Shown: in pieces, positions 3,263 through 17,635 of the stretch | Position numbering within the stretch: the stretch's first letter is position 1 | Layout: the number at the start of each line of letters is the position of its first letter | Assembly (NCBI GenBank): GCA_905331295.1 | Contig: CAJNYD010000555.1 | Location: 45,319 to 65,318 of the forward strand | Source of the DNA: Rotaria socialis | Lineage: Eukaryota | DNA length: 20,000 bases | Reading direction: 5' to 3' | Program-made: the position numbers and the translations under genes | Notes under the pieces: generated by a model | What the model was told of the DNA's origin: nothing | Seen by the model: the letters and a program-made list of their open reading frames with translations, nothing else | The model's database searches: none

Positions 3263-4781
3263 TCAAGAGAGAGTTACTGTCGCAGTTATACCAGCGCCAA
3301 GTGAATCTGTGCTTAACCAAAAACTCACGATATACACTTGTCCAGCCGCAGCCGTAAATTGTTGACTAAGTCGATCGGCGCATGAATTACTTCCATCGCA
3401 GGCACAATAACTTCCACTTCGACAATTATAATTGCAAATTCGGGCTACGTACCCTCCACAACTTCCATATGGTCCAGTGCGTACCCAAGGTGAAAGTGAA
3501 CCAGTTTCGAAACCTATATTTGTTAGCATTTGTGTGCCTCCTTGATAGATAGAGGTATCATCAACATACCACTGACCTGGATCATTGCGCAGCTCAAACA
3601 TAAAAGTAACTGGACCTGTCGTAGGTGACGTCCATGAATATACATAGCAGCCGTATGTAGTGTCATTGGGAGACGAGATAGTCAAAAGAATACTTGCAAG
3701 ACCAACAGAAGTAGGAAGACATGGGGGTAACGGTGTAGTTGTTGTTGATGCTGTCGTTGTGGTTACCGATGTTGTTGAAGTTGCTGTCGTCGAAGTTGTT
3801 GTGGTTGCTGTTGTTGTCACAATATGTGTATTTGTGAGAAGAAAAACCAAGAGAGCAGCAATACCCATCAGAAGTAATAAAATACCAATAGATATTGAAA
3901 CACAACAACATGCCGAACAGGCCGGACAGATTTTACCAATACAGCGACGATTTCTTTTATTGGTTTTGTTTTTTTCAGTATTTTTCGCTGTTGTCTTTAA
4001 TCTGTCTTCAAGCACGCCCCATGCATATCGAAGACTTCTTGGTTTTGACTTTTGTTCTTGATATTCTTCCATTGATTTCATTCTCGATAAATTAGCTGAA
4101 ACATTATGGTTCATTACACTACTGAAAAGTTTACTGGATGATGATGCCTATGTCAGTAGTAAAGTAAATGAGGACTCAAAAAAAATAATATGTACCGAAA
4201 TCTCATTAAATTTATTTTTAGTTGTTCGAATACTGTGAGGATGAATGATATTGTGACGTTTTATTGATGAAGTTTCAGCCATTTCAATGACGAGTGGATG
4301 CATAGAAGTTGGTGAAACTGGATTTGATTTAAATTTATTAGTAGTAGTGGATATGCCACTCATTTTGCCTGAGCGTAAATCATCAGATAGTATCTAAATA
4401 AATAATTAAGAGATATTTATCAAATTAGAGGAAAACTATCGAGCATTGACTTCGCAGAATTATAGTAGATGTTCAATAGAACAAGAACAATTTCTTTTAA
4501 TAAAAGATTTTTATCTAGATTACATGGTTTACCTGTTTTTTTCGGATACGCTGATCATTGTTCTTATGCATGGAACGTTTTGTTTTCCTTCGGATTGATG
4601 AATTTCTACTAGCAAGAACTACTGTCACGGACCCCTTAAAAATAAAATCTCAGTAAATTAATGTGATACTTTCGAAAGAACTTGCGGTTTTTTTATATTT
4701 TTTATGAATGCTTGACTGCATATTTTCCCGACGAACAGGAACCACAGTGACTCGTATTTTCGGTTCAGTTTCGAACATCAT
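3263..4781 (-). CDS. Gene A: type II single-pass membrane protein with Thr-rich stalk and C-terminal CBM4/9-like (galactose-binding-like) domain, ~426 aa
   Basis: Exons are 4781-4686, 4634-4533, 4393-4196 and 4147-3263, all joined in phase 0 without stops. Introns are 51 nt (GC-AG), 139 nt and 48 nt. The protein runs MMFETEPKIRVTVVPV..., basic stretch KTNKRNRR, CIGKICPACSACCC, TM VSISIGILLLLMGIAALLVFLL, poly-Thr, then ...FELRNDPGQWYVDDTSI...TNIGFETGSLSPW...LSQQF...GQVYIVSFWL. Exons 1-3 match gene B in position (exons 2 and 3 are 102 and 198 nt in both). Confidence 0.85.
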
Positions 4782-7466: not shown

Positions 7467-10400
7467 TTACGTGAGAGTTACTGTCGCAGTTATACCAGCG
7501 CCAAGTGAATCTGTGCGTAACCAAAAACTCACGATATACACTTGTCCAGCCGCAGCCGTAAATTGTTGACTAAGTCGATCGGCACATGAATTACTTCCAT
7601 CGCAGGCACAATAACTTCCACTTCGACAATTATAATTGCAAATTCGGGCTACGTACCCTCCACAACTTCCATATGGTCCAGTGCGTACCCAAGGTGAAAG
7701 TGAACCAGTTTCGAAACCTATATTTGTTAGCATTTGTGTGCCTCCTTGATAGATAGAGGTATCATCAACATACCACTGACCTGGATCATTGCGCAGCTCA
7801 AACATAAAAGTAACTGGACCTGTGGTAGGTGACGTCCATGTATACGCGTAACAATTATACCCAGTAGCAGTAGGATTTGAGATAGTCAAAAGAGTACTTG
7901 CAGAACCTACTGAGGTTGGTATACAGGGAGGTGTCGGCGTCGTTGCTATTTACATTGGTAAAACAGATTATCAAAGGCAAGCAAAGTAAAATACAAGTTA
8001 CCTGTTGTGCTGGTAGAAGTTGAACCTAGAAAAATTAATAAAATTTATTTAAGCAAAACAAACAATCTCTTCTTTGAAGAATGATAGCAAAGGATCTACT
8101 TTTTTGTAGCTATCAGAGACCATCACAGGGCACAACAAACGACTTTGCCTTGGGAGCTGTGTACTGATCCTAATTTATTTTTTTCTGATTGACAATATTT
8201 GATGTCAATTTTAACCCAATTACTCTTTGTCCAATGTATTTTGATCGAGTGATATGAACTCAAGCTGTTTGTAAATTGAAATTAAGTAGTAATGTAATTG
8301 AGTCTTTATTTTAATACATATCTTATAAAGTATGAACGTCATATAAAGTTGTTGCTCAAGAACTTTATGAACGAAAAGAACTCTTTAACAAAAAAAAAGT
8401 AAATAAAAATTTTCTTTTCATTCAAAAGATCCAATTTTAATCGAGCCATTTAAAAAATAGGCGACTTTGAAGTAAATAACCAACAAAAATAGAAGATTAT
8501 TCTGTACTAGAAAACTGCTCACTAAAATATTTCATGAAGCTTTACAATTAAGAAATGACGATGTCATTTTGTCTTTTTAATCTATTTATAGTGACCGATA
8601 TATTCAATCTTTATTTTCAGAAATAAAAAATTTTGAAGAAATTTTGTAATAAATAGAAAGAATTTGTTTATGTCTATTTTATAAAAATTAAGATGAAATA
8701 GGACTCTCAGTAAAAAACCTTTTTTGTATTTAAATTACTTTCCTTCCAAAAAAAAAATGGTGTTTTTTTCTAGTGAAAATCCTAGTATTCAACAACACTT
8801 TCTCAATAAAAATGCTTAACTCAATAATAATAAAATTACCTCAAAAATTTTTGAATATAAATTTGAATGCTGTTATAAAACAAATATGTAAAGAATCAAC
8901 ACTTTCGGAGCAGCAATGTGGTATAGAATTTTTGAAAAACTTATGCATTTCTATTGCGCAGGGAAGGGCTGACTAATATTATTATCATTTTGGTTCACAC
9001 CAATAAGTGTCATTTCTCGTCACAAAGTGGAGCATGACATGTGTCTGGCGCTAAAATTGTGCTTAGCATCAACGAACAATCAAACAGTTTGATTGGAATA
9101 GTAGCATTTCAATCAATTTTTTAGGAGAAAAATACCAATTAAAATTGGATTTCTTCTCGAATCTTCGTACAAACACTGCTATCGGACACGCGATTCTATT
9201 TAATTGCATACTAATTTTTTGATTTTGACATTCTTTCGTGAAGACATAAAATGAATATGATCACTAGTCTTGAAAAGCAAATACATTACTTTAATCAAGC
9301 CTTACGATCTCATATAGGCATATTCAATTTAGAGATTTCATTTCAAATTGCCCTGCTCTGTGATACTCTATGGTAGCTATCAATCATAGCTGCGAAGCTG
9401 AGAAAAATAAAAACTATATTATCATTTTTCACTTTACTCACTTGTTGTTGTTGTTGTTGTTTGTGCTTGTATATACGAAAAAGAAAGAATTATACTGGTT
9501 TTCTCATGCGACAAAGACATTACTTACATGTAGATGATGTTGAACCTATCATAAACACAAAATAGTAAAGATTAATAGTAAAAAATTACAAATTACTTGT
9601 GGACGATGTCGTTGTAGTTGAAGTTGTCGATGTTGATGTTGTTGAAGTTGTCGACGTTGATGTCGTCGAAGTTGTTGTTGTTGCTGTTGTTGTCACAATA
9701 TGTGTATTTGTGAGAAGAAAAACCAAGAGAGCAGCAATACCCATCAGAAGTAATAAAATACCAATAGATATTGAAACACAACAACATGCCGAACAGGCCG
9801 GACAGATTTTACCAATACAGCGACGATTTCTTTTATCGGTTTTGTTTTTTTCAGTATTTTTCGCTGTTGTCTTTAATCTGTCTTCAAGCACGCCCCATGC
9901 ATATCGAAGACTTCTTCGTTTTGGCTTTTGTTCTTGATATTCTTCCATTGATTTCATTCTCGATAAATTACTTGAAACATCATGGTTCATTACACTACTG
10001 AAAAGTTTACTGGATGATAATGCCTATGTCAGTAGTAAAATCAACGAGAAATCAAGAAAACTAATTAGTACCGAAGTCACATTGAAGTTATCTGTAGTTG
10101 TTCGAATTCTTTGAGGGTGAATAATAGTTGGAGTTCGGATTGATGAAATTTCATGCATTTCGATGATGACTGGGTGCATAAAAGTTGGTGTAACTGTATT
10201 TGATTTAAATTTATTAACAGATGTTGATAGACCACCTATTTCATCTAAGTGTAAATCATCAGACAACATCTAAATAAATAATTAAAAAATATTTATGAAA
10301 TCAGATAAAATTACTTTCGTATTTACAATGGGAAAAAGAATTTCGACACAACAATATTTTAAGATAAAAGATTTTACTTCAGATCATACTATTTACCTGA

Positions 10401-10643: not shown

Positions 10644-12367
10644 CGTGTACACTCGTCTCGCAAGAAATAATGAAAAAATGAATATGTAAAAACAACAGCA
10701 ACTATTCGTACGTGATTGTTTTTGCTAGGGCATTGCGGAGGCCACTGATTAATTCGAAGTGGGGATTGATTTTCAGGGTATTCTAGGTCAAAAGATGAAT
10801 GCTTTGCACAGAAGCCACATAACAAATACTTTACTTTCCACTGCTCTTATATATTACCAGTTGGATCCGCGTGTCAGCTAACAAGAAGACTTTTGTGAAA
10901 TAAAATTGAATATGTTCACAATATTTTTTTCTTACTGTATGACAACTGTTGTCCACAGATGTACACAGTTACACAGGGAAAATATTTGTACGCATGATGA
11001 AGAATAGATTGCAGAAGCTTTTCTCCGTATGTTTAATCGAGATTCAACTGAAGAATGAAAGATGCCAAGGAACATATACTAAATCACTGTGAGATTGCTT
11101 AATTAATATTTACTTTCGCGTACAATGATATTTAGGTTTTCTTTTTCATTCATACACTTTGTACCGAACCATAACTTCGAAAATGAGAAACAAAATTAAC
11201 TTCTACGCCGAAAGATAATTCTCGTTTAATATAGCATGATTCTTTGATAGTGACCAGCAAGATCAATTATTATAGCAACTGTTTTTCAATTGAGTATGCT
11301 GCAATTCAAAAACAAAAGATGAAATGTTTTCTGTTGGTTGTAATTTTAATAAGCAAGTGGTGGATGCACTCTTTTCTAATTGTCCATGTGCATCCAGAAC
11401 TATGAGAAATTTATATTTGACGATACTGTGAATTTGAATAATTAGCATGAAGTACATTATTAAAATTATAATAGTTGAATTTTCTGATATTCTATTTTGA
11501 ATGACAAGTTCATTTTCAATACGATTTCGTTCGGCGTCTTACATTTGATTAGCACCAAAATTTTTCGTTTAGCTAGACATCATCCAACGATACTTTTTTT
11601 ACACTTCGGCAATGCGAATTGAAAGCAATCTTCCATGGAAACTTGTTATTAATAGGTTTTGATGATATAAATTGTGAGAAAAAAAGGAAGTATGCATTAC
11701 TTGTAAAGATCTGATGTATCTCAACAAAGTTCTGTATATAGTTAAGCTATCTGTTTGATAGTAGATGCATTGAACGAAGTAGATAATTAGATGAAAATAC
11801 TTGTTGCTTTTATACTTTATTTTATGAAGAAACTTCAAAATAAAATTGTAAAAATTTAAATACCAAAAGCAATACATTCTATGATACTTTTATGGACATT
11901 ACAAAGTACTTGCATATTTTGGTCGGCAGAAATAACAATAATCTTGACAAGCATTCATAATTTTCTTATTCAACAGAAACAACTATACGCTTCATTGTGA
12001 AAAATAAGAAAAATAATAACAGATTAAGCTTGTTGCTTAATAGAATTATGCGTAGTTTTTAATCGGGCATATATTTTGAGAGAACATTAGTAATTTTTTT
12101 TTGTCTTTCCTGTAGTAATTTCATACAAACACTGCCATACAAGGGGGATTAAAGTAGGACATTATTGCGTCATAGTAGTTTTTTTAACATGTCAATAGAA
12201 AGCGCAGAGAAAAGAAAATTGTTTGTCTACAATTCTGGCGTTCGTTCAATCATATTTGAAAATGTCATGCTAACCATATCAAACGTTTTTGAAGTCTTCT
12301 GTGCCAGTAAAATTATAAAACGTTCTCGTATTACTAGCATTATCATGAATGAAATATCTCTCGTGTA

Positions 12368-12614
12368 CCAATGTAAAATAATTGGATTTATAATCAGATT
12401 AAAAATCTATTATAATGGCACTATTTTAATCGATTATAATAGTTTTTAGGTAATCAATTAAAATTGATTAAAATACAATCAAAATCAAAAATAATCTGCC
12501 TTTTAAGGCTGGAAAATCTGATTCAAATCAGGTTGTAATAGTATCATTAAAATAGATTTATAATCGCATAAAAATCAATTATAATCAGAATTTTTACGTT
12601 TCTTTTTACATGGG
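12368..12614. mobile_element. 247-bp MITE with TA flanks
   Basis: TIRs are CCAATGTAAAA and CCCATGTAAAA (10/11), flanked by TA at 12366-12367 and 12615-12616. The interior is built from TAATC/GATTA/AAAATC motifs. Confidence 0.7.
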
Positions 12615-13031
12615 TAGCAAGACGAATGGTGTGGTTACAATGAAAAAAACCGACGTAGTTTGCTTTCATATACACATCTACATGTAAAAATAATTATGCG
12701 CCCAATCACTTGTCATAGTTTTGTTCGAATCATGAATATCGTGCTAAGAATAACTACTAATATTTTACCTATTTTGATCATCAATCACGTGAGGATCTTG
12801 TAGGCCAATGCGTATAGTAAAAAGTATAAAAACTTAAGTCAAGTTTCTAGTTAGCTGGATTAAAAATGTGTATGAAAAATCACGAGAGCAAAACTCTTAA
12901 AAAGAATCAGTTCAATATATAAAAACTCATAATCATTAACGTCGAGTATAGGTACTGGAGATAAATCGATATTCTTGAATTATTGAAACATATTTTCTTC
13001 GTATCTTAGTTGAAGCTAGTTTCCGATAGCA

Positions 13032-15749
13032 ATGACTGAATTTATGTGCACTTATCTAATAATACTCTTCTGGTCAGTTTTACTAGTGCTGGGACGCAAC
13101 TCTGAAAACGTGGAAAATGTTAGTGAATTAAATTCAGCACACGTGAAAAGGGATGAAGAATCGAACTCAATGGAACCAAATAATTATAGTAGGATCTAGT
13201 TTCTTTTTTTATTTCATTGAATTTAACTTAGGTACTCTGTAGAGAAATTTGTTGCAACGTACAAGACTAATATTAATGTTTTGTCCGATAGCATCGATTT
13301 ATCGAAAATAGAGGAGGAGGTATCTGTATATATATATATATATACATACTCTTTCACTTGTAGTTCTTCATTTATTTTCCTTTATTCTTTTCATTCAACA
13401 GTTTGAATTAGCTCTAAAAGCTGAATCAGAAACTATTACCATAGAACAGATAGAAAGTGTATCAACAAGCGAACATAATCATCAATTGTTGTAAGCAATA
13501 CTTTTTGAATGACGTAAGCGATTTATGTTTATGTTTCTGTATCGCAAGAATAATACGTTCCAATACAAGCAATACGAACTTTGGAATTATTATTACATTT
13601 ATTATTAAATTTCCACGTAGCCAAGTATGTCAAACTACTAAATGTATCGATACGTTCTTCAATGGCATGCAACAGCGATTTGAACGTTTCTGTAACTTGA
13701 CTATCACACTTGTATACAAGGACCAAAATGGAGTATATAAAGTTCAGCTAAGACTGTGCTCAATTCAGATAACCAGTACGCAATCGATCAATACAACATC
13801 AACAACGACGACAACTAAGACACCAACTATCACAATCACCTCTCCAACCACAACCACAACTACAACTGCGACTACAACAACAACTGCATCAACAACAACA
13901 ACAACAACAACTACATCAACAACAACAGCATCAACAACTACCGTGTCGACTAAGGAAGATTCAAGTACCTTGTGGTTTACTATTGATTGCTAATGTGAAA
14001 AGTTATACATTCAATACCTGCAAAATATTTGAATTGGTTCATGGTAAAAAGGATTAAATTTTTACGAGATAAGCAAAGAGAAATTATCGTGCTATCCGAG
14101 TATAACATAACTTTAGAACTGTAATAGTGTTATTTAGATTTTATATTTTCTTGAAAGGGCTAAAGATTTCGAGGAAGTTGAGTCGATTGTTGGTATTGCA
14201 AGAGTTAAACAGACAGAAGTAAATTATACAGAAAAACTTTCGCTAATTGACGTTTGTTTGAAGTCTCCAGTGTTTTTATCCCTCCTAGATTAGATACCTC
14301 ATGTGAGCTTGAAAATAGATTAAATTTTTAAATATAGTAAGTATAGAAGCGTAACAGCTGCAGAATTAGCATTGATCTGACAACTCTATTAAAGTGTGAA
14401 CAGTAGCATTTCGGACTAAGCGATCTGAGAAATAATAATTATGTTTTTAAATGTATTCTAATTAACAAACTATATGTAGAAGATTATGCTAGTTGAACTA
14501 CTAATTCCTTTTTTTTGTAGTGAGTGGCATTGCTGGCAGTGGACTACCTTTTGATAATATGCAACCATCTTTGGTACTTACACAAATAGTACCATTGTCT
14601 ATTACATTTCCTCTATGTGCTATTCGTACTTTTGCATGCAACTTTGCTCCTGGTAATAGTCTTCTAGCATATGGACAACTACTCCCGATAGCATCCAATA
14701 CAGCGATATTTTCTATCATGGGTACAACTTATGGAGGTGACGGTAAAAAAACCTTTGCACTTCCGAATTTACAAGGTATTACAATTATTGGTAGTGGTCA
14801 AGGTAGTGGCTTATCACCTTATCGCCTAGGCGAACAGACCGGAAGTCAACAAGTAACACTGACTAAAAATCAGATGCCGGCACATGTACACTCAATCCCA
14901 AGCTCGATTGATTTCACAGGCGTGACAGGTTCATCACAATCATTCTCTTCTATTCAACCATCTTTAGCGATGAGCTATCTGATTTGTATAAGTGGTGTTT
15001 TTCCATCCGCTGGTTCCTCCGTAGGACAACTACCATTCATCGGTCAAATCGTTCCATATACTGGAAATGTTATACCGACGGGATGGGCACTAGCGGATGG
15101 AAGCTTATTGTCGATTGCATCAGATACAGCTCTGTTTTCAATACTTGGTACTACGTACGGAGGTGATGGAGTAACTAACTTTCGTTTACCAGACTTACAA
15201 GGCAGAGTACCTGTTGGCGTTTCTGGAAGTTTAAATACACAGATTGGTAATACTATTGGCGTCGAATCTGTTACTCTGTTAACCAATAACTTACCTTCAC
15301 ATGTGCATAGTCTAGTCGGTAGCAAGTATAATGCGACTCAAACTGGTGTTACAGGAGCTGGACAGACTTTCGATAATCGGCAACCTGGTTTGGGAATCAC
15401 TTATCTGATAACAATGCAAGGAGTATTTCCATCACAAGGAGGTACTGGTCCAGAACCTATGGCACCTTATCTTGGAGAGATTGTTGCATTTGCTGGTAAT
15501 TTTCAGCCAGGGGGTTACGCCTTTGCCAATGACCAACTACTATCAATTTCTCAAAATACAGCTCTCTTTGTTTTGCTGGGTACTACTTATGGTGGCAATG
15601 GTATAACAAGTTTTGCTCTTCCTGATCTTCGCGGTCGAGTCATCCTCGGATCTGGAAGAGGTTTTAGCATTGGGCAAACCCTTGGTTCATCGCTGATAAC
15701 GCTAACAGTAGATCAAATGCCATCTCATGCACATAGTCTTAGCCCATAA
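13032..15749 (+). CDS. Gene C: secreted protein with signal peptide, globular (possibly SEA-like) domain, Thr-rich stalk and three phage tail-collar/MdpB-like repeats, ~655 aa
   Basis: Exons are 13032-13188, 13243-13319, 13402-13490, 13549-13964 and 14521-15749. GT-AG introns are 54, 82, 58 and 556 nt with phases 1,0,2,1, giving an open 1968-nt frame. The N-terminus MTEFMCTYLIILFWSVLLVLG is signal-like and is followed by a KR site. The last exon has a strong acceptor (TTTTTTTTGTAG ending at 14520). The donor at 13965 (GTACCT) is weak, so the exon 4-5 join is the least certain part. Confidence 0.75.
13327..13344. repeat. (TA)n microsatellite in intron 2 of gene C
   Basis: The TA dinucleotide run is read directly from the sequence. 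Confidence 0.9.
14521..15749 (+). CDS. Terminal exon of gene C: three tandem phage tail-collar (Pfam Collar / COG4675 MdpB-like) domains
   Basis: It has three copies of the family motifs: (G)xIxxFAGNFxPxG, QLLxIxxNTALFSxLGTTYGGDGxxxFALPDLxGR, VTLTxxQMPxHxH and FDNxQPxL...GVFPS. The exon is intronless. Its first ATG in frame lies inside the repeat, and it is preceded by a polypyrimidine-AG acceptor. Confidence 0.92.
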
Positions 15750-16999
15750 AACATGATTTAGTATCACTGATATTTTTGTTAAATTTCAATATGACCGTTA
15801 ATGAAGTTTGATCATCACATTTGAACTATAATTTCAGTACTGATTCTTGTCTCCGAATATCCTATTTCATCTATGCAAATGAAAAAATTGCGTAGCATCA
15901 TTGATTTCGAATCAAAAATAAAGGGTAACTGCGTAACTAACCATAGGTTTTTCCCGCTTTGTCATGTCGATGATATGCTTCGTGGAATAATACCATATGA
16001 ACGTGTGAAAAATGCATAATTTATAGGAATATTTTTATAGCCATTCACAATCACGTATATATTGTATAGGGAGAAGAGTAGTAAGTAGCTCATAAAAAAT
16101 ACATCAAGAAAGTATCTTCAAGGAAGTCATAACTGCCGGTGAGGTACTCGTTTTTATTTACTTTTGCATTTCTATCAAAAACGTTTCTTATTTTACTAGC
16201 TTATTTCTACCTTTTCTCTAGCTAACAAACAATTAAACTAATTGTTAAATTCTACTCATACAACAAAACTAATCTTGAATATGTGTTGCTGTTGAGTCCG
16301 ATCATTTTTATTTTTGCCTCACTGCTTATCTTTTCACGTGAAAAATATTCTAGAAAATTCACTGATGATTTCTTCACTAGTATTTTCAGTAAAGTTAAGT
16401 ATTTTATAGCAAAATTAAAATTGTGATTGAGTAATCAAATGAAGCAGGCGTGAGTCATATTCAAAAATACTTGTTTCTTAATTTACAAGGCTGTATCATT
16501 GTATTGAAATTTTTGACTTGAATCTGATTAGATGTAGTTTCGAAACTGAAATATGTTTACAATTAGGTGTTACCGGCCATATCAAGACTCGATTCGTAAA
16601 GCAATGTGTGATTGGTATTGGACAATGAAAGAATAAATGTTTTAAGAATATATACTTGTTGGTTCTCTTTTCTGTTCTTTTATTCGCATTGTTTATTACA
16701 AGGGCATAAATATTTGTTTTCTATTTCTCTTCATTCCTTTTCTCTGCACAGTATTCGCTTCTTTTTCGCGTTATGTTGGTGCTCCTCCACGTGATATTAT
16801 ATCGTCTTAAATACTAAAAACTGAGCAAAACAAATGCATTTTTGACAACTAGTACATGTCAACACAAATCTATCTAAAGTAACGATTTTAATTAATCAAG
16901 CGTAACATATCCTGGCATTCATTTACGTGTACACTAAAACACAATAAAAAAAATAGAACGCATATCACCAACAACTTCAGCAAACATAATATTAAGTAA

Positions 17000-17635
17000 A
17001 TGAGCCAAGTTCATTTTTCTAATAACAAAGTATCGTTACCCTTGAATATGATGCATCGAACATGTCGTCGTTCTATGGAAAAATTAAATATTTACGACTC
17101 GAATACATCACCATCCATTTCATCAAAACCTCAATTACCTCCACCTTTACCACCACCCCGTAAAAATCGGCGCCATCTATACAATGGTGAAACTTTCGAA
17201 CGTTATCACTTTCTCTGTAATATGAAGCGCCATAGAACAGATCCGATTTATGCTGCTACGCCAATGTTTTCAACAATACCACAATCAACACCAGTAAAAC
17301 ATACTCGAACATTGCTAGGCGCTTATATACCTTCATATATTATTAAGCCTTTACCGATTCAATCTCCGATGTCTACTACATCTCCAGAACTATCAAATGC
17401 TAATAAAATTGATGATGCAGAAAGAGATAGAAATAAGAATAATGATCAAAATGCAAGTGATGGTGATAAAAATAGAGATGTCGATGACGATGATGATGAC
17501 GATCAAGGAAATTCATCAAGTAGTAGTGATGACATTGGTATTGATGATATTATTAATAATGATGATGATGTGATCGATGATAATGATAATGATCAAGGGA
17601 TGGTAGAAAAAATATTCAACACAAATAAGAAATGA
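17000..17635 (+). CDS. Gene D: hypothetical, largely disordered 211-aa protein (Pro-rich motif, Asp/Asn-rich tail)
   Basis: This is a 636-nt ATG-initiated ORF in very AT-rich DNA, with start context AAAATG-like (TAAATG) and AATAAA at 17694-17699. It contains PQLPPPLPPPRK and a D/N-rich C-terminus. I recognise no family. Confidence 0.6.
   Translation: MSQVHFSNNKVSLPLNMMHRTCRRSMEKLNIYDSNTSPSISSKPQLPPPLPPPRKNRRHLYNGETFERYHFLCNMKRHRTDPIYAATPMFSTIPQSTPVKHTRTLLGAYIPSYIIKPLPIQSPMSTTSPELSNANKIDDAERDRNKNNDQNASDGDKNRDVDDDDDDDQGNSSSSSDDIGIDDIINNDDDVIDDNDNDQGMVEKIFNTNKK

What the first reader, a model, noticed from the sequence alone, without database searches (positions are those of the whole stretch)
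13032..15749. Bacterial/phage tail-collar module domesticated as the tip of a eukaryotic secreted mucin-stalked protein
Seen: an intronless 1.2-kb exon of clear tail-collar/MdpB-type repeats sits behind a strong splice acceptor. It joins in phase to four upstream exons encoding a signal peptide, a KR site, a Cys-containing globular domain and a ~60-residue Thr-rich stalk. Known: Collar/MdpB domains are typical of phage tail fibres and bacterial tail-fibre-like proteins. Inference: a horizontally acquired binding module was exon-shuffled onto a host secretion and stalk scaffold. It may act as a secreted microbe-binding, adhesive or defence protein.
Basis: partly seen in the sequence, partly recalled or inferred. 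Interest (0 to 1): 0.88.

Follow-up and report, generated by a model that had tools for sequence, protein, structure and literature searches.

The report
Rotifer mucin-stalk with bacterial fibre knob
A bdelloid rotifer carries a bacteria-derived exon encoding a three-part phage-tail-fibre-like knob, predicted to be spliced onto the end of its own secreted, threonine-rich stalk protein, where it likely serves as a binding or adhesion head; neither expression nor binding has been shown.

Summary
Real and largely as described. The window's proteins match Rotaria socialis (bdelloid rotifer) at 96-100%. Five GT-AG exons give an open 655-aa frame: signal-like N-terminus, orphan Cys domain (weak SEA lead), ~60-aa Thr stalk, three Collar domains. 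Corrections: (1) the donor is not a phage: nearest relatives are bacterial signal peptide + circularly permuted 3xCollar + PEP-CTERM surface proteins (89 of 110 top non-rotifer hits); the rotifer exon spans just the mature module and drops the anchor. (2) Eight rotifer copies form one clade (bootstrap 100) inside these bacterial proteins, so the transfer predates several Rotaria species. (3) The window's allele has an extra 91 nt and relies on a weak donor at 13965; a second allele lacks them and puts a canonical phase-1 donor (14044) right behind the stalk, the junction of 8 of 10 public models. The module folds confidently (pLDDT 96.5) and keeps six metal-site-like histidines. No RNA test of the splice was possible. 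Collar-type foreign transcripts of Rotaria sit undiscussed in a 2015 supplement; the fusion was not found in print. The scan had noted the bacterial family on other DNA, not in an animal.

The parts
13032..13188 (+). Exon 1: predicted signal peptide (aa 1-~21, 13032-13094) and short acidic segment with dibasic KR (13146-13151); phase-1 donor ATA|GTAGGA
   Evidence: no SignalP available; public model P0127 starts at Met47 in this exon
13243..13319 (+). Exon 2, start of an orphan globular domain (aa ~53-180, possibly SEA-like)
   Evidence: same exon in public model P0127; SEA lead 0.80 only; 0 HMMER hits in 1.84 billion representatives
13402..13490 (+). Exon 3 (orphan domain)
13549..13964 (+). 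Exon 4 as in the window allele: rest of the Cys-containing domain plus Thr stalk; weak phase-1 donor CAA|GTACCT at 13965; read-through stops at 13991-13993
   Evidence: public model P0003 uses this donor
13772..13950 (+). Thr-rich mucin-like stalk, ~60 aa, length-polymorphic (48-77 aa by my measure among 10 public models)
   Evidence: Pfam Mucin only E 0.054
13951..14041 (+). 91-nt segment present in the window allele and absent from a second allele
   Evidence: loose ends at 14042 in X5, X6, X8 and joint in X7; reconstruction
14042..14049 (+). Canonical donor G|GTAAAA (14044): phase 1 and directly behind the stalk in the short allele (intron 477 nt, 651-aa protein)
   Evidence: junction matches 8 of 10 public R. 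socialis models
14521..15749 (+). Exon 5: horizontally acquired, circularly permuted single-chain triple Collar (MdpB-like) module, 408 aa plus stop; phase-1 acceptor at 14520; stop falls where bacterial relatives begin PEP-CTERM
14883..14891 (+). His-x-His motif 1 (predicted metal site with motifs 2 and 3)
15300..15308 (+). His-x-His motif 2
15726..15734 (+). His-x-His motif 3

Best explanation
Exon 5 is a bacterial surface-protein module, acquired once by an ancestor of several Rotaria rotifers, that is likely spliced in phase 1 onto a host signal peptide, globular domain and threonine stalk, giving a predicted secreted protein whose glycosylated stalk would hold out a metal-locked three-fold knob that likely binds a carbohydrate or cell surface (microbes, or the substrate the animal sits on). 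Shown: sequence, frame, bacterial relatives, rotifer clade, two alleles. Predicted: fold, signal peptide, splice. Inferred: O-glycosylation, six-His metal site, binding. In bacteria the module is signal peptide + permuted 3xCollar + PEP-CTERM anchor; the rotifer keeps only the mature part and swaps a C-terminal anchor for an N-terminal stalk. Because the permutation cuts the chain in the loop after the His-x-His strand, both chain ends should lie at the needle-tip pole, so anchor and stalk would attach at the same pole and the collar face would point outward, the reverse of a phage fibre (inferred from sequence order, not from coordinates). The short allele is probably the working and ancestral one; the window's long allele may splice poorly.
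For: Open 5-exon frame, 0 of 300 shuffles. 89 of 110 top non-rotifer hits have hydrophobic leader + permuted first strand + PEP-like tail; PF07589 confirmed on the 2 closest tested. Eight rotifer-type sequences form a clade, UFBoot 100 (46 of 118 sequences) and SH 1.0 (118), nested among them. AlphaFold2 with 117 sequences: pLDDT 96.5, pTM 0.92, three repeating units; best folds are phage fibre tips 8KEC, 1OCY, 2XGF, though weak, Z 3.6-4.2. All six His kept in 7 of 8 rotifer and 99 of 110 other sequences. Short allele gives a canonical phase-1 donor behind the stalk, used by 8 of 10 public models. A neighbouring host gene has the same build, Thr-stalk exon with phase-1 donor and domain exon with phase-1 acceptor. 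No stop or frameshift variant listed in the exons in six DNA runs, outside the repeats the tool skipped; exon-5 variants 5 synonymous, 4 not (P 0.053). The leader of the Silwood1 paralogue P0017 ends in a Thr/Ser run and S-T-G-K, as a read-through of the short-allele donor would (a hint). A heterotrimer of three Collar proteins from a virophage binds Synechococcus LPS in ELISA (PMC12724248).
Against: 9 of 10 public models start inside exon 4 and none at 13032, although the 2021 assemblies were annotated with RNA-guided BRAKER (PMC7943196 passage). The N-terminal domain has no relative outside R. socialis, so its host origin rests on intron style and neighbours only. Models from other Rotaria show no such N-terminal domain, and the P0004 leader could be a real short signal peptide. 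The R. magnacalcarata orthologue looks decayed: two His motifs lost, two deletions, branch 0.162 against 0.014. The loop that forms the receptor-binding head in phage fibres is only ~22-25 residues here against ~110 in 8KEC, so ligand binding does not follow from the fold. No function is known for the bacterial family.
Confidence: 0.55

Rival explanations
1. The locus is a little-used or decaying gene: integrated and once functional, now silent or null in part of the population (the window's long allele in particular).
For: Long allele displaces the canonical donor and reads into a stop at 13991 unless a weak donor is used; it is common (X1, X4, X5, X6, X8). Sister-species copy looks degraded. 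Public models disagree on the start.
Against: Very short R. socialis branch since the split (0.014), all six His intact, all five exons open, synonymous-leaning variants. The long allele still has an in-phase donor.
Confidence: 0.22
2. Exon 5 is a gene of its own (short leader or other first exon), and exons 1-4 encode a separate secreted stalk protein; the fusion is an annotation guess.
For: Other Rotaria models are Collar-only with short or odd leaders; no long rotifer fusion among the best 120 of 485 longer hits; the first in-frame ATG of exon 5 is at 14559.
Against: A stop lies at 14502-14504, six codons before the module, and the 14559 start would cut the first strand and give no signal peptide; strong phase-matched donor and acceptor in the short allele; in that allele exon 4 ends at this donor.
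Confidence: 0.12
3. The protein is made and secreted but the knob is structural (a stable cap or cross-linker in mucus, cement or cuticle) or docks a protein partner through its collar face, with no microbe recognition.
For: Very short tip loops and inferred outward-facing collar pole; in the virophage paper the collar end is modelled as the part that docks on capsid protein.
Against: Nothing tested directly; the only assay on a three-Collar assembly that I read shows LPS-dependent cell binding.
Confidence: 0.1
4. Bacterial contamination or assembly chimera near 14000-14500.
For: Contigs break at the Thr repeat (13838-13943, skipped by the tool); the one contig that crosses it (X7) has only 25 letters on the short side, under the tool's bar for a bridge.
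Against: Overlapping contigs 13944-14071 and 14042 onward in five runs of two studies; exon 5 GC3 0.24, like exon 4 at 0.29; 10 of 10 public R. socialis models join stalk and module; orthologues in three other named Rotaria; the R. magnacalcarata model borrows its leader from the antisense of the neighbour at 9780-9846, which points to shared synteny.
Confidence: 0.01

Closest known systems
Bacterial fused triple-Collar PEP-CTERM surface proteins (annotated 'tail fiber protein' or 'microcystin-dependent protein'; unnamed, untested family)
   Same: Same permuted three-unit order, His-x-His triad, up to 56% identity over the whole module.
   Different: Rotifer form lacks PEP-CTERM and the bacterial signal peptide, has the first inter-unit linker shortened (span 23 aa against median 35), gains a Cys absent from bacteria (C155, 8 of 8 against 1%), and is predicted to hang from a spliced Thr stalk.
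Bacterial MdpB/Collar gene triads (three separate genes)
   Same: Three Collar units; 128 of 160 loci fetched show three separate Collar ORFs by my motif count.
   Different: Three chains, unpermuted, 33-46% best-segment identity; not the donor form.
Phage tail-fibre tips: T4 gp12 (1OCY), T4 gp37 (2XGF), cyanophage A-1(L) fibre (8KEC); virophage DSLV2 tail heterotrimer (PMC12724248)
   Same: Collar domain and His-x-His strand; top sequence and fold matches in PDB.
   Different: Trimers of separate chains on a virion with a long head or needle; here one chain, permuted, tip loop ~22-25 aa. Matches cover one unit only and are weak (Z up to 4.2).
Horizontally acquired genes of bdelloid rotifers (PMC4632278, PMC11258130)
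   Same: About 10% of Rotaria transcripts with a hit are foreign; four transcripts annotated tail-collar or microcystin-dependent protein stand in the 2015 foreign-gene table, from R. sordida, R. tardigrada and R. socialis.
   Different: Not discussed in either main text ('collar' 0 times); most described cases are enzymes. The listed R. socialis transcript matches the R. magnacalcarata genome at 99.8% in three pieces, so it is probably another gene.
SEA-domain mucins
   Same: Signal peptide, globular domain, Thr-rich stalk; ESM Atlas feature hits to SEA clusters at 0.80.
   Different: No Pfam SEA hit up to E 10, no structural match above TM 0.41, no transmembrane anchor.

Membership tests
Collar domain (PF07484) proteins | Pfam Collar above the curated cut-off | tested here: met
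   220 bits against 24, three stretches
Fused triple-Collar PEP-CTERM proteins | Three permuted units in one chain, beginning with the returning QP strand and ending after the third His-x-His | tested here: met
Fused triple-Collar PEP-CTERM proteins | C-terminal PEP-CTERM sorting signal | tested here: not met
   stop four residues after the last His-x-His; no PF07589 on P0127. A descendant, not a member
Phage tail fibre tip | Viral gene for a trimeric virion fibre | tested here: not met
   eukaryotic intron-exon context; 0 of 360 matching phage records cover 80%
Phage tail fibre tip | Collar plus His-x-His needle fold | tested here: inconclusive
   confident model, best PDB matches are fibre tips but Z 3.6-4.2 and Foldseek E 0.008
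Phage tail fibre tip | Metal binding and receptor binding | not testable with these tools
   six His conserved; no coordinates or assay
Horizontally acquired bdelloid gene | Nested among non-metazoan sequences in a tree | tested here: met
   no non-rotifer animal name among the 120 + 120 hits listed
Horizontally acquired bdelloid gene | Integrated in the host genome | tested here: met
Horizontally acquired bdelloid gene | Transcribed and spliced | tested here: inconclusive
   no run on record as RNA could test it (see Tried and rejected)
SEA-domain mucin | SEA domain (PF01390 or fold) | tested here: inconclusive
   Atlas feature lead 0.80; no Pfam, PDB or HMMER hit; not folded alone
SEA-domain mucin | O-glycosylated Thr/Ser stalk and cleaved signal peptide | not testable with these tools
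   composition and hydropathy only

The most novel reading that the evidence does not exclude
Rotaria rotifers built an animal microbe-recognition or adhesion receptor from a captured bacterial fibre-tip knob: one transfer, precise excision of the mature module from between its signal peptide and PEP-CTERM anchor, phase-1 shuffling onto a mucin stalk before the genus radiated, and display of the knob with its collar face outward, the reverse of a phage fibre. It would also be the first handle on what the widespread, untested bacterial triple-Collar proteins bind.
Probability: 0.2. Interest if true: 0.8.

Novelty: new variant of a known kind. Interest (0 to 1): 0.52.

Why it matters
Foreign genes are routine in bdelloids, but most described ones are enzymes. 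This is a candidate chimera in which a bacterial surface module was re-anchored on an animal secretory scaffold with its boundaries cut at the functional joints. It offers a single soluble chain for testing what a very common, uncharacterised bacterial Collar family binds, and a natural two-allele splice polymorphism for testing whether the gene matters to the animal.

Tried and rejected
No RNA holder listed for 13000-15800; the one run guessed to be RNA laid a single contig at 16947-17000 and none on the gene: no evidence either way. No whole genome held. Rotifer-specific motif in metagenome contigs: 0 matches; the 80 best of 566 metagenome loci, 80 of 585 genome loci and 80 of 96 viral loci held nothing above 50% identity, so no flanking DNA of other rotifers could be read. 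My idea that the R. magnacalcarata leader is an exon-4 remnant failed (174 of 200 shuffles score as high; it maps to 9780-9846 instead). Leaders of P0017 and P0004 give no significant DNA match upstream (50 and 47 of 200 shuffles as high). AlphaFold2 on 16 sequences failed (pLDDT 33). N-terminal domain: 0 HMMER hits, one PDB hit at E 0.14, Atlas structure rows TM up to 0.41. NCBIfam: nothing for exon 5. The locus classifier had a faulty pattern and was rerun; support labels were shifted by rerooting and were read from splits. The 91-nt segment shares no 12-mer with the rest of the window. A C32-C155 disulfide was considered but could not be checked without coordinates (C32 in 5 of 8). Paper searches found no description of a rotifer Collar protein or of Collar with PEP-CTERM; subscription journals and bioRxiv supplements are outside the library, and 4 of 16 supplement files of PMC11258130 were not searched. 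No complex prediction was run: no binding partner is claimed.

Full report
Observation. The five exons named under parts join through GT-AG introns of 54, 82, 58 and 556 nt into 655 codons without a stop. The product has a hydrophobic N-terminus, KR at 39-40, a region with four Cys, a ~60-residue Thr run and, in exon 5, three Pfam Collar domains (E 2e-66). A hydrophobic start with an open splice chain into exon 4 appeared in 0 of 300 shuffles of the upstream DNA (my thresholds, chosen after seeing the sequence). Exon 5 has GC 0.42 but GC3 0.24, close to exon 4 (0.29), so it is fully ameliorated.

Organism and integration. Exon 5 is 96-100% identical to Rotaria socialis proteins and 60-84% to proteins of R. 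magnacalcarata, R. sp. Silwood1, Silwood2 and three unnamed records. The DNA stands in eight runs of two studies at 83-90% of words; six were laid. Contigs overlap from 13944 through exon 5 in five of them and break only at the Thr repeat, which the tool skips. All 10 public R. socialis models examined join stalk and module. The R. magnacalcarata model takes its leader from the antisense strand of the neighbouring gene (55 bits, ending at 9846), which points to shared synteny. Contamination or chimera is very unlikely.

Two alleles. Contigs of X5, X6 and X8 carry the end of the stalk directly in front of position 14042, and X7 skips to it (4 of 4 runs): a second allele lacks 13951-14041. There the stalk runs into G|GTAAAA at 14044, phase 1, giving 651 aa and the junction found in 8 of 10 public models; one uses the window's donor and one an extra exon. 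In the window allele that donor is out of reach, read-through stops at 13991, and the frame depends on CAA|GTACCT. The long form is seen in X1, X4, X5, X6, X8 at roughly half to two thirds of the flanking depth, consistent with heterozygosity (the tool warns that depth is no copy number). I infer that the short allele is ancestral; the S-T-G-K end of the Thr/Ser-rich leader of the distant paralogue P0017 fits this but its DNA match was not significant.

Origin. Of the 110 non-rotifer proteins among the best 120 of 3131 hits, 102 begin with the strand that closes the domain in unpermuted proteins, 100 end in a PEP-like sorting tail, 98 have a short hydrophobic leader, and 89 have all three (pattern counts; PF07589 confirmed on 2 of 2 tested). 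The rotifer exon starts where their mature chain starts and stops where their anchor begins. The window plus seven rotifer-type proteins form one clade, SH 1.0 with 118 sequences and UFBoot 100 with 46 of them, nested among these bacterial proteins; the sister group is unresolved (three near-identical R. socialis rows left out; no outgroup, so nesting rests on the diversity of the bacterial side). Phage records match single units only (0 of 360 cover 80%). Separate-gene triads are common in bacteria (128 of 160 loci) but more distant. Named hits are all Rotaria; no Adineta or other animal name appears in the lists shown, which is weak evidence of absence.

Structure. With 117 aligned sequences AlphaFold2 gives pLDDT 96.5 and pTM 0.92 and three repeating units 44-52% identical to each other. 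Best PDB matches are fibre tips of cyanophage A-1(L) and T4, one unit each and weak (Z 4.2, 3.8, 3.6; Foldseek E 0.008); single-chain comparison cannot see a pseudo-trimer. Three His-x-His motifs are complete in 7 of 8 rotifer and 99 of 110 other sequences; that such triads bind a metal on the three-fold axis of T4 fibres is recalled knowledge. In 8KEC about 110 residues lie between His-x-His and the returning QP strand, here 22-25: the head is minimal. The permutation cuts one of these loops, so I infer that both termini, hence the bacterial anchor and the rotifer stalk, sit at the tip pole and the collar face points outward.

Host part. Residues 47-184 have no detectable relative outside R. 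socialis. ESM Atlas features point to SEA domains at 0.80, a lead only. Short introns and the neighbours argue for host origin: the gene on the minus strand at 10023-7467 also has a Thr-stalk exon with a phase-1 donor (9596) and a domain exon with a phase-1 acceptor (7945), and its paralogue at 3263-4147 has stalk and domain in one frame.

Is it functional? For: intact frame, short branch (0.014), His triad, 5 synonymous and 4 non-synonymous variants in exon 5 against 312 and 912 sites (P 0.053). Against: 9 of 10 public models start inside exon 4 and none at 13032; the sister-species copy is degraded; the window allele has a weak donor. Expression could not be tested.

Mechanism. Most likely (0.55) a secreted protein in which an O-glycosylated stalk presents a rigid, metal-locked knob that binds a glycan or cell surface. 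R. socialis lives on a waterlouse (PMC4632278 passage), but relatives occur in free-living Rotaria, so attachment to that host is not the general explanation. The only assay on a three-Collar assembly that I read is the virophage DSLV2 heterotrimer binding Synechococcus LPS (PMC12724248). Rivals: decaying gene (0.22), separate genes (0.12), structural cap or protein docking (0.10), artefact (0.01).

Literature seen. PMC4632278: abstract, passages, supplement rows (3 files searched); its foreign-gene table lists four tail-collar or microcystin-dependent transcripts in R. sordida (975 and 2276 nt), R. tardigrada and R. socialis, none tied to this gene, and the main text never says 'collar'. PMC7943196: passages. 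PMC11258130: passages and 12 of 16 supplement files, no 'collar'. PMC12724248: abstract, first part of Results, section 27. Others: search listings only. Ten searches found no account of this protein. Earlier scan notes describe the bacterial triads and the fused PEP-CTERM family on other DNA, none in a rotifer.

Verdict. Observation confirmed, interpretation partly supported. A new variant of a known kind (bdelloid horizontal transfer; bacterial triple-Collar surface protein), interesting for the clean anchor-for-stalk swap and the splice polymorphism, limited by missing expression and ligand data. Interest 0.52.

Noticed in passing
window 12366-12616: High-copy, internally palindromic element ~415 nt upstream of the ATG, with 13-nt terminal inverted repeats (92% complementary); summed contig depth 30-45 times the flanks: MITE-like.
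   Followed up: partly
window 3263-4147, 7467-7949, 9586-10023 (minus strand): Two paralogous genes for Cys-rich transmembrane segment + Thr stalk + C-terminal globular domain (weak NTTRR-F1 / CBM_4_9 hints); one has stalk and domain in one frame, the other is split by phase-1 introns. The tip domain's origin was not examined.
   Followed up: partly
window 17000-17635 (+): 211-aa ORF with Pro-rich and Asp-rich parts, no Pfam hit; one contig of the run guessed to be RNA begins at 16947.
   Followed up: no
proteins P0147-P0266: In bacteria the triple-Collar module is also fused to many large secreted proteins (peptidase M10, haemolysin-type Ca-binding, cadherin-like, Hint, dockerin, glycosyltransferase domains): a mobile surface module.
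   Followed up: no
window 13320-13349: TA microsatellite at the start of intron 2; contigs of X8 break there.
   Followed up: no
PMC4632278 supplement, row RSOCT0003677: An R. socialis 'microcystin-dependent protein' transcript matches the R. magnacalcarata genome at 99.8% in three pieces: probably a second, intron-containing Collar gene in Rotaria.
   Followed up: no
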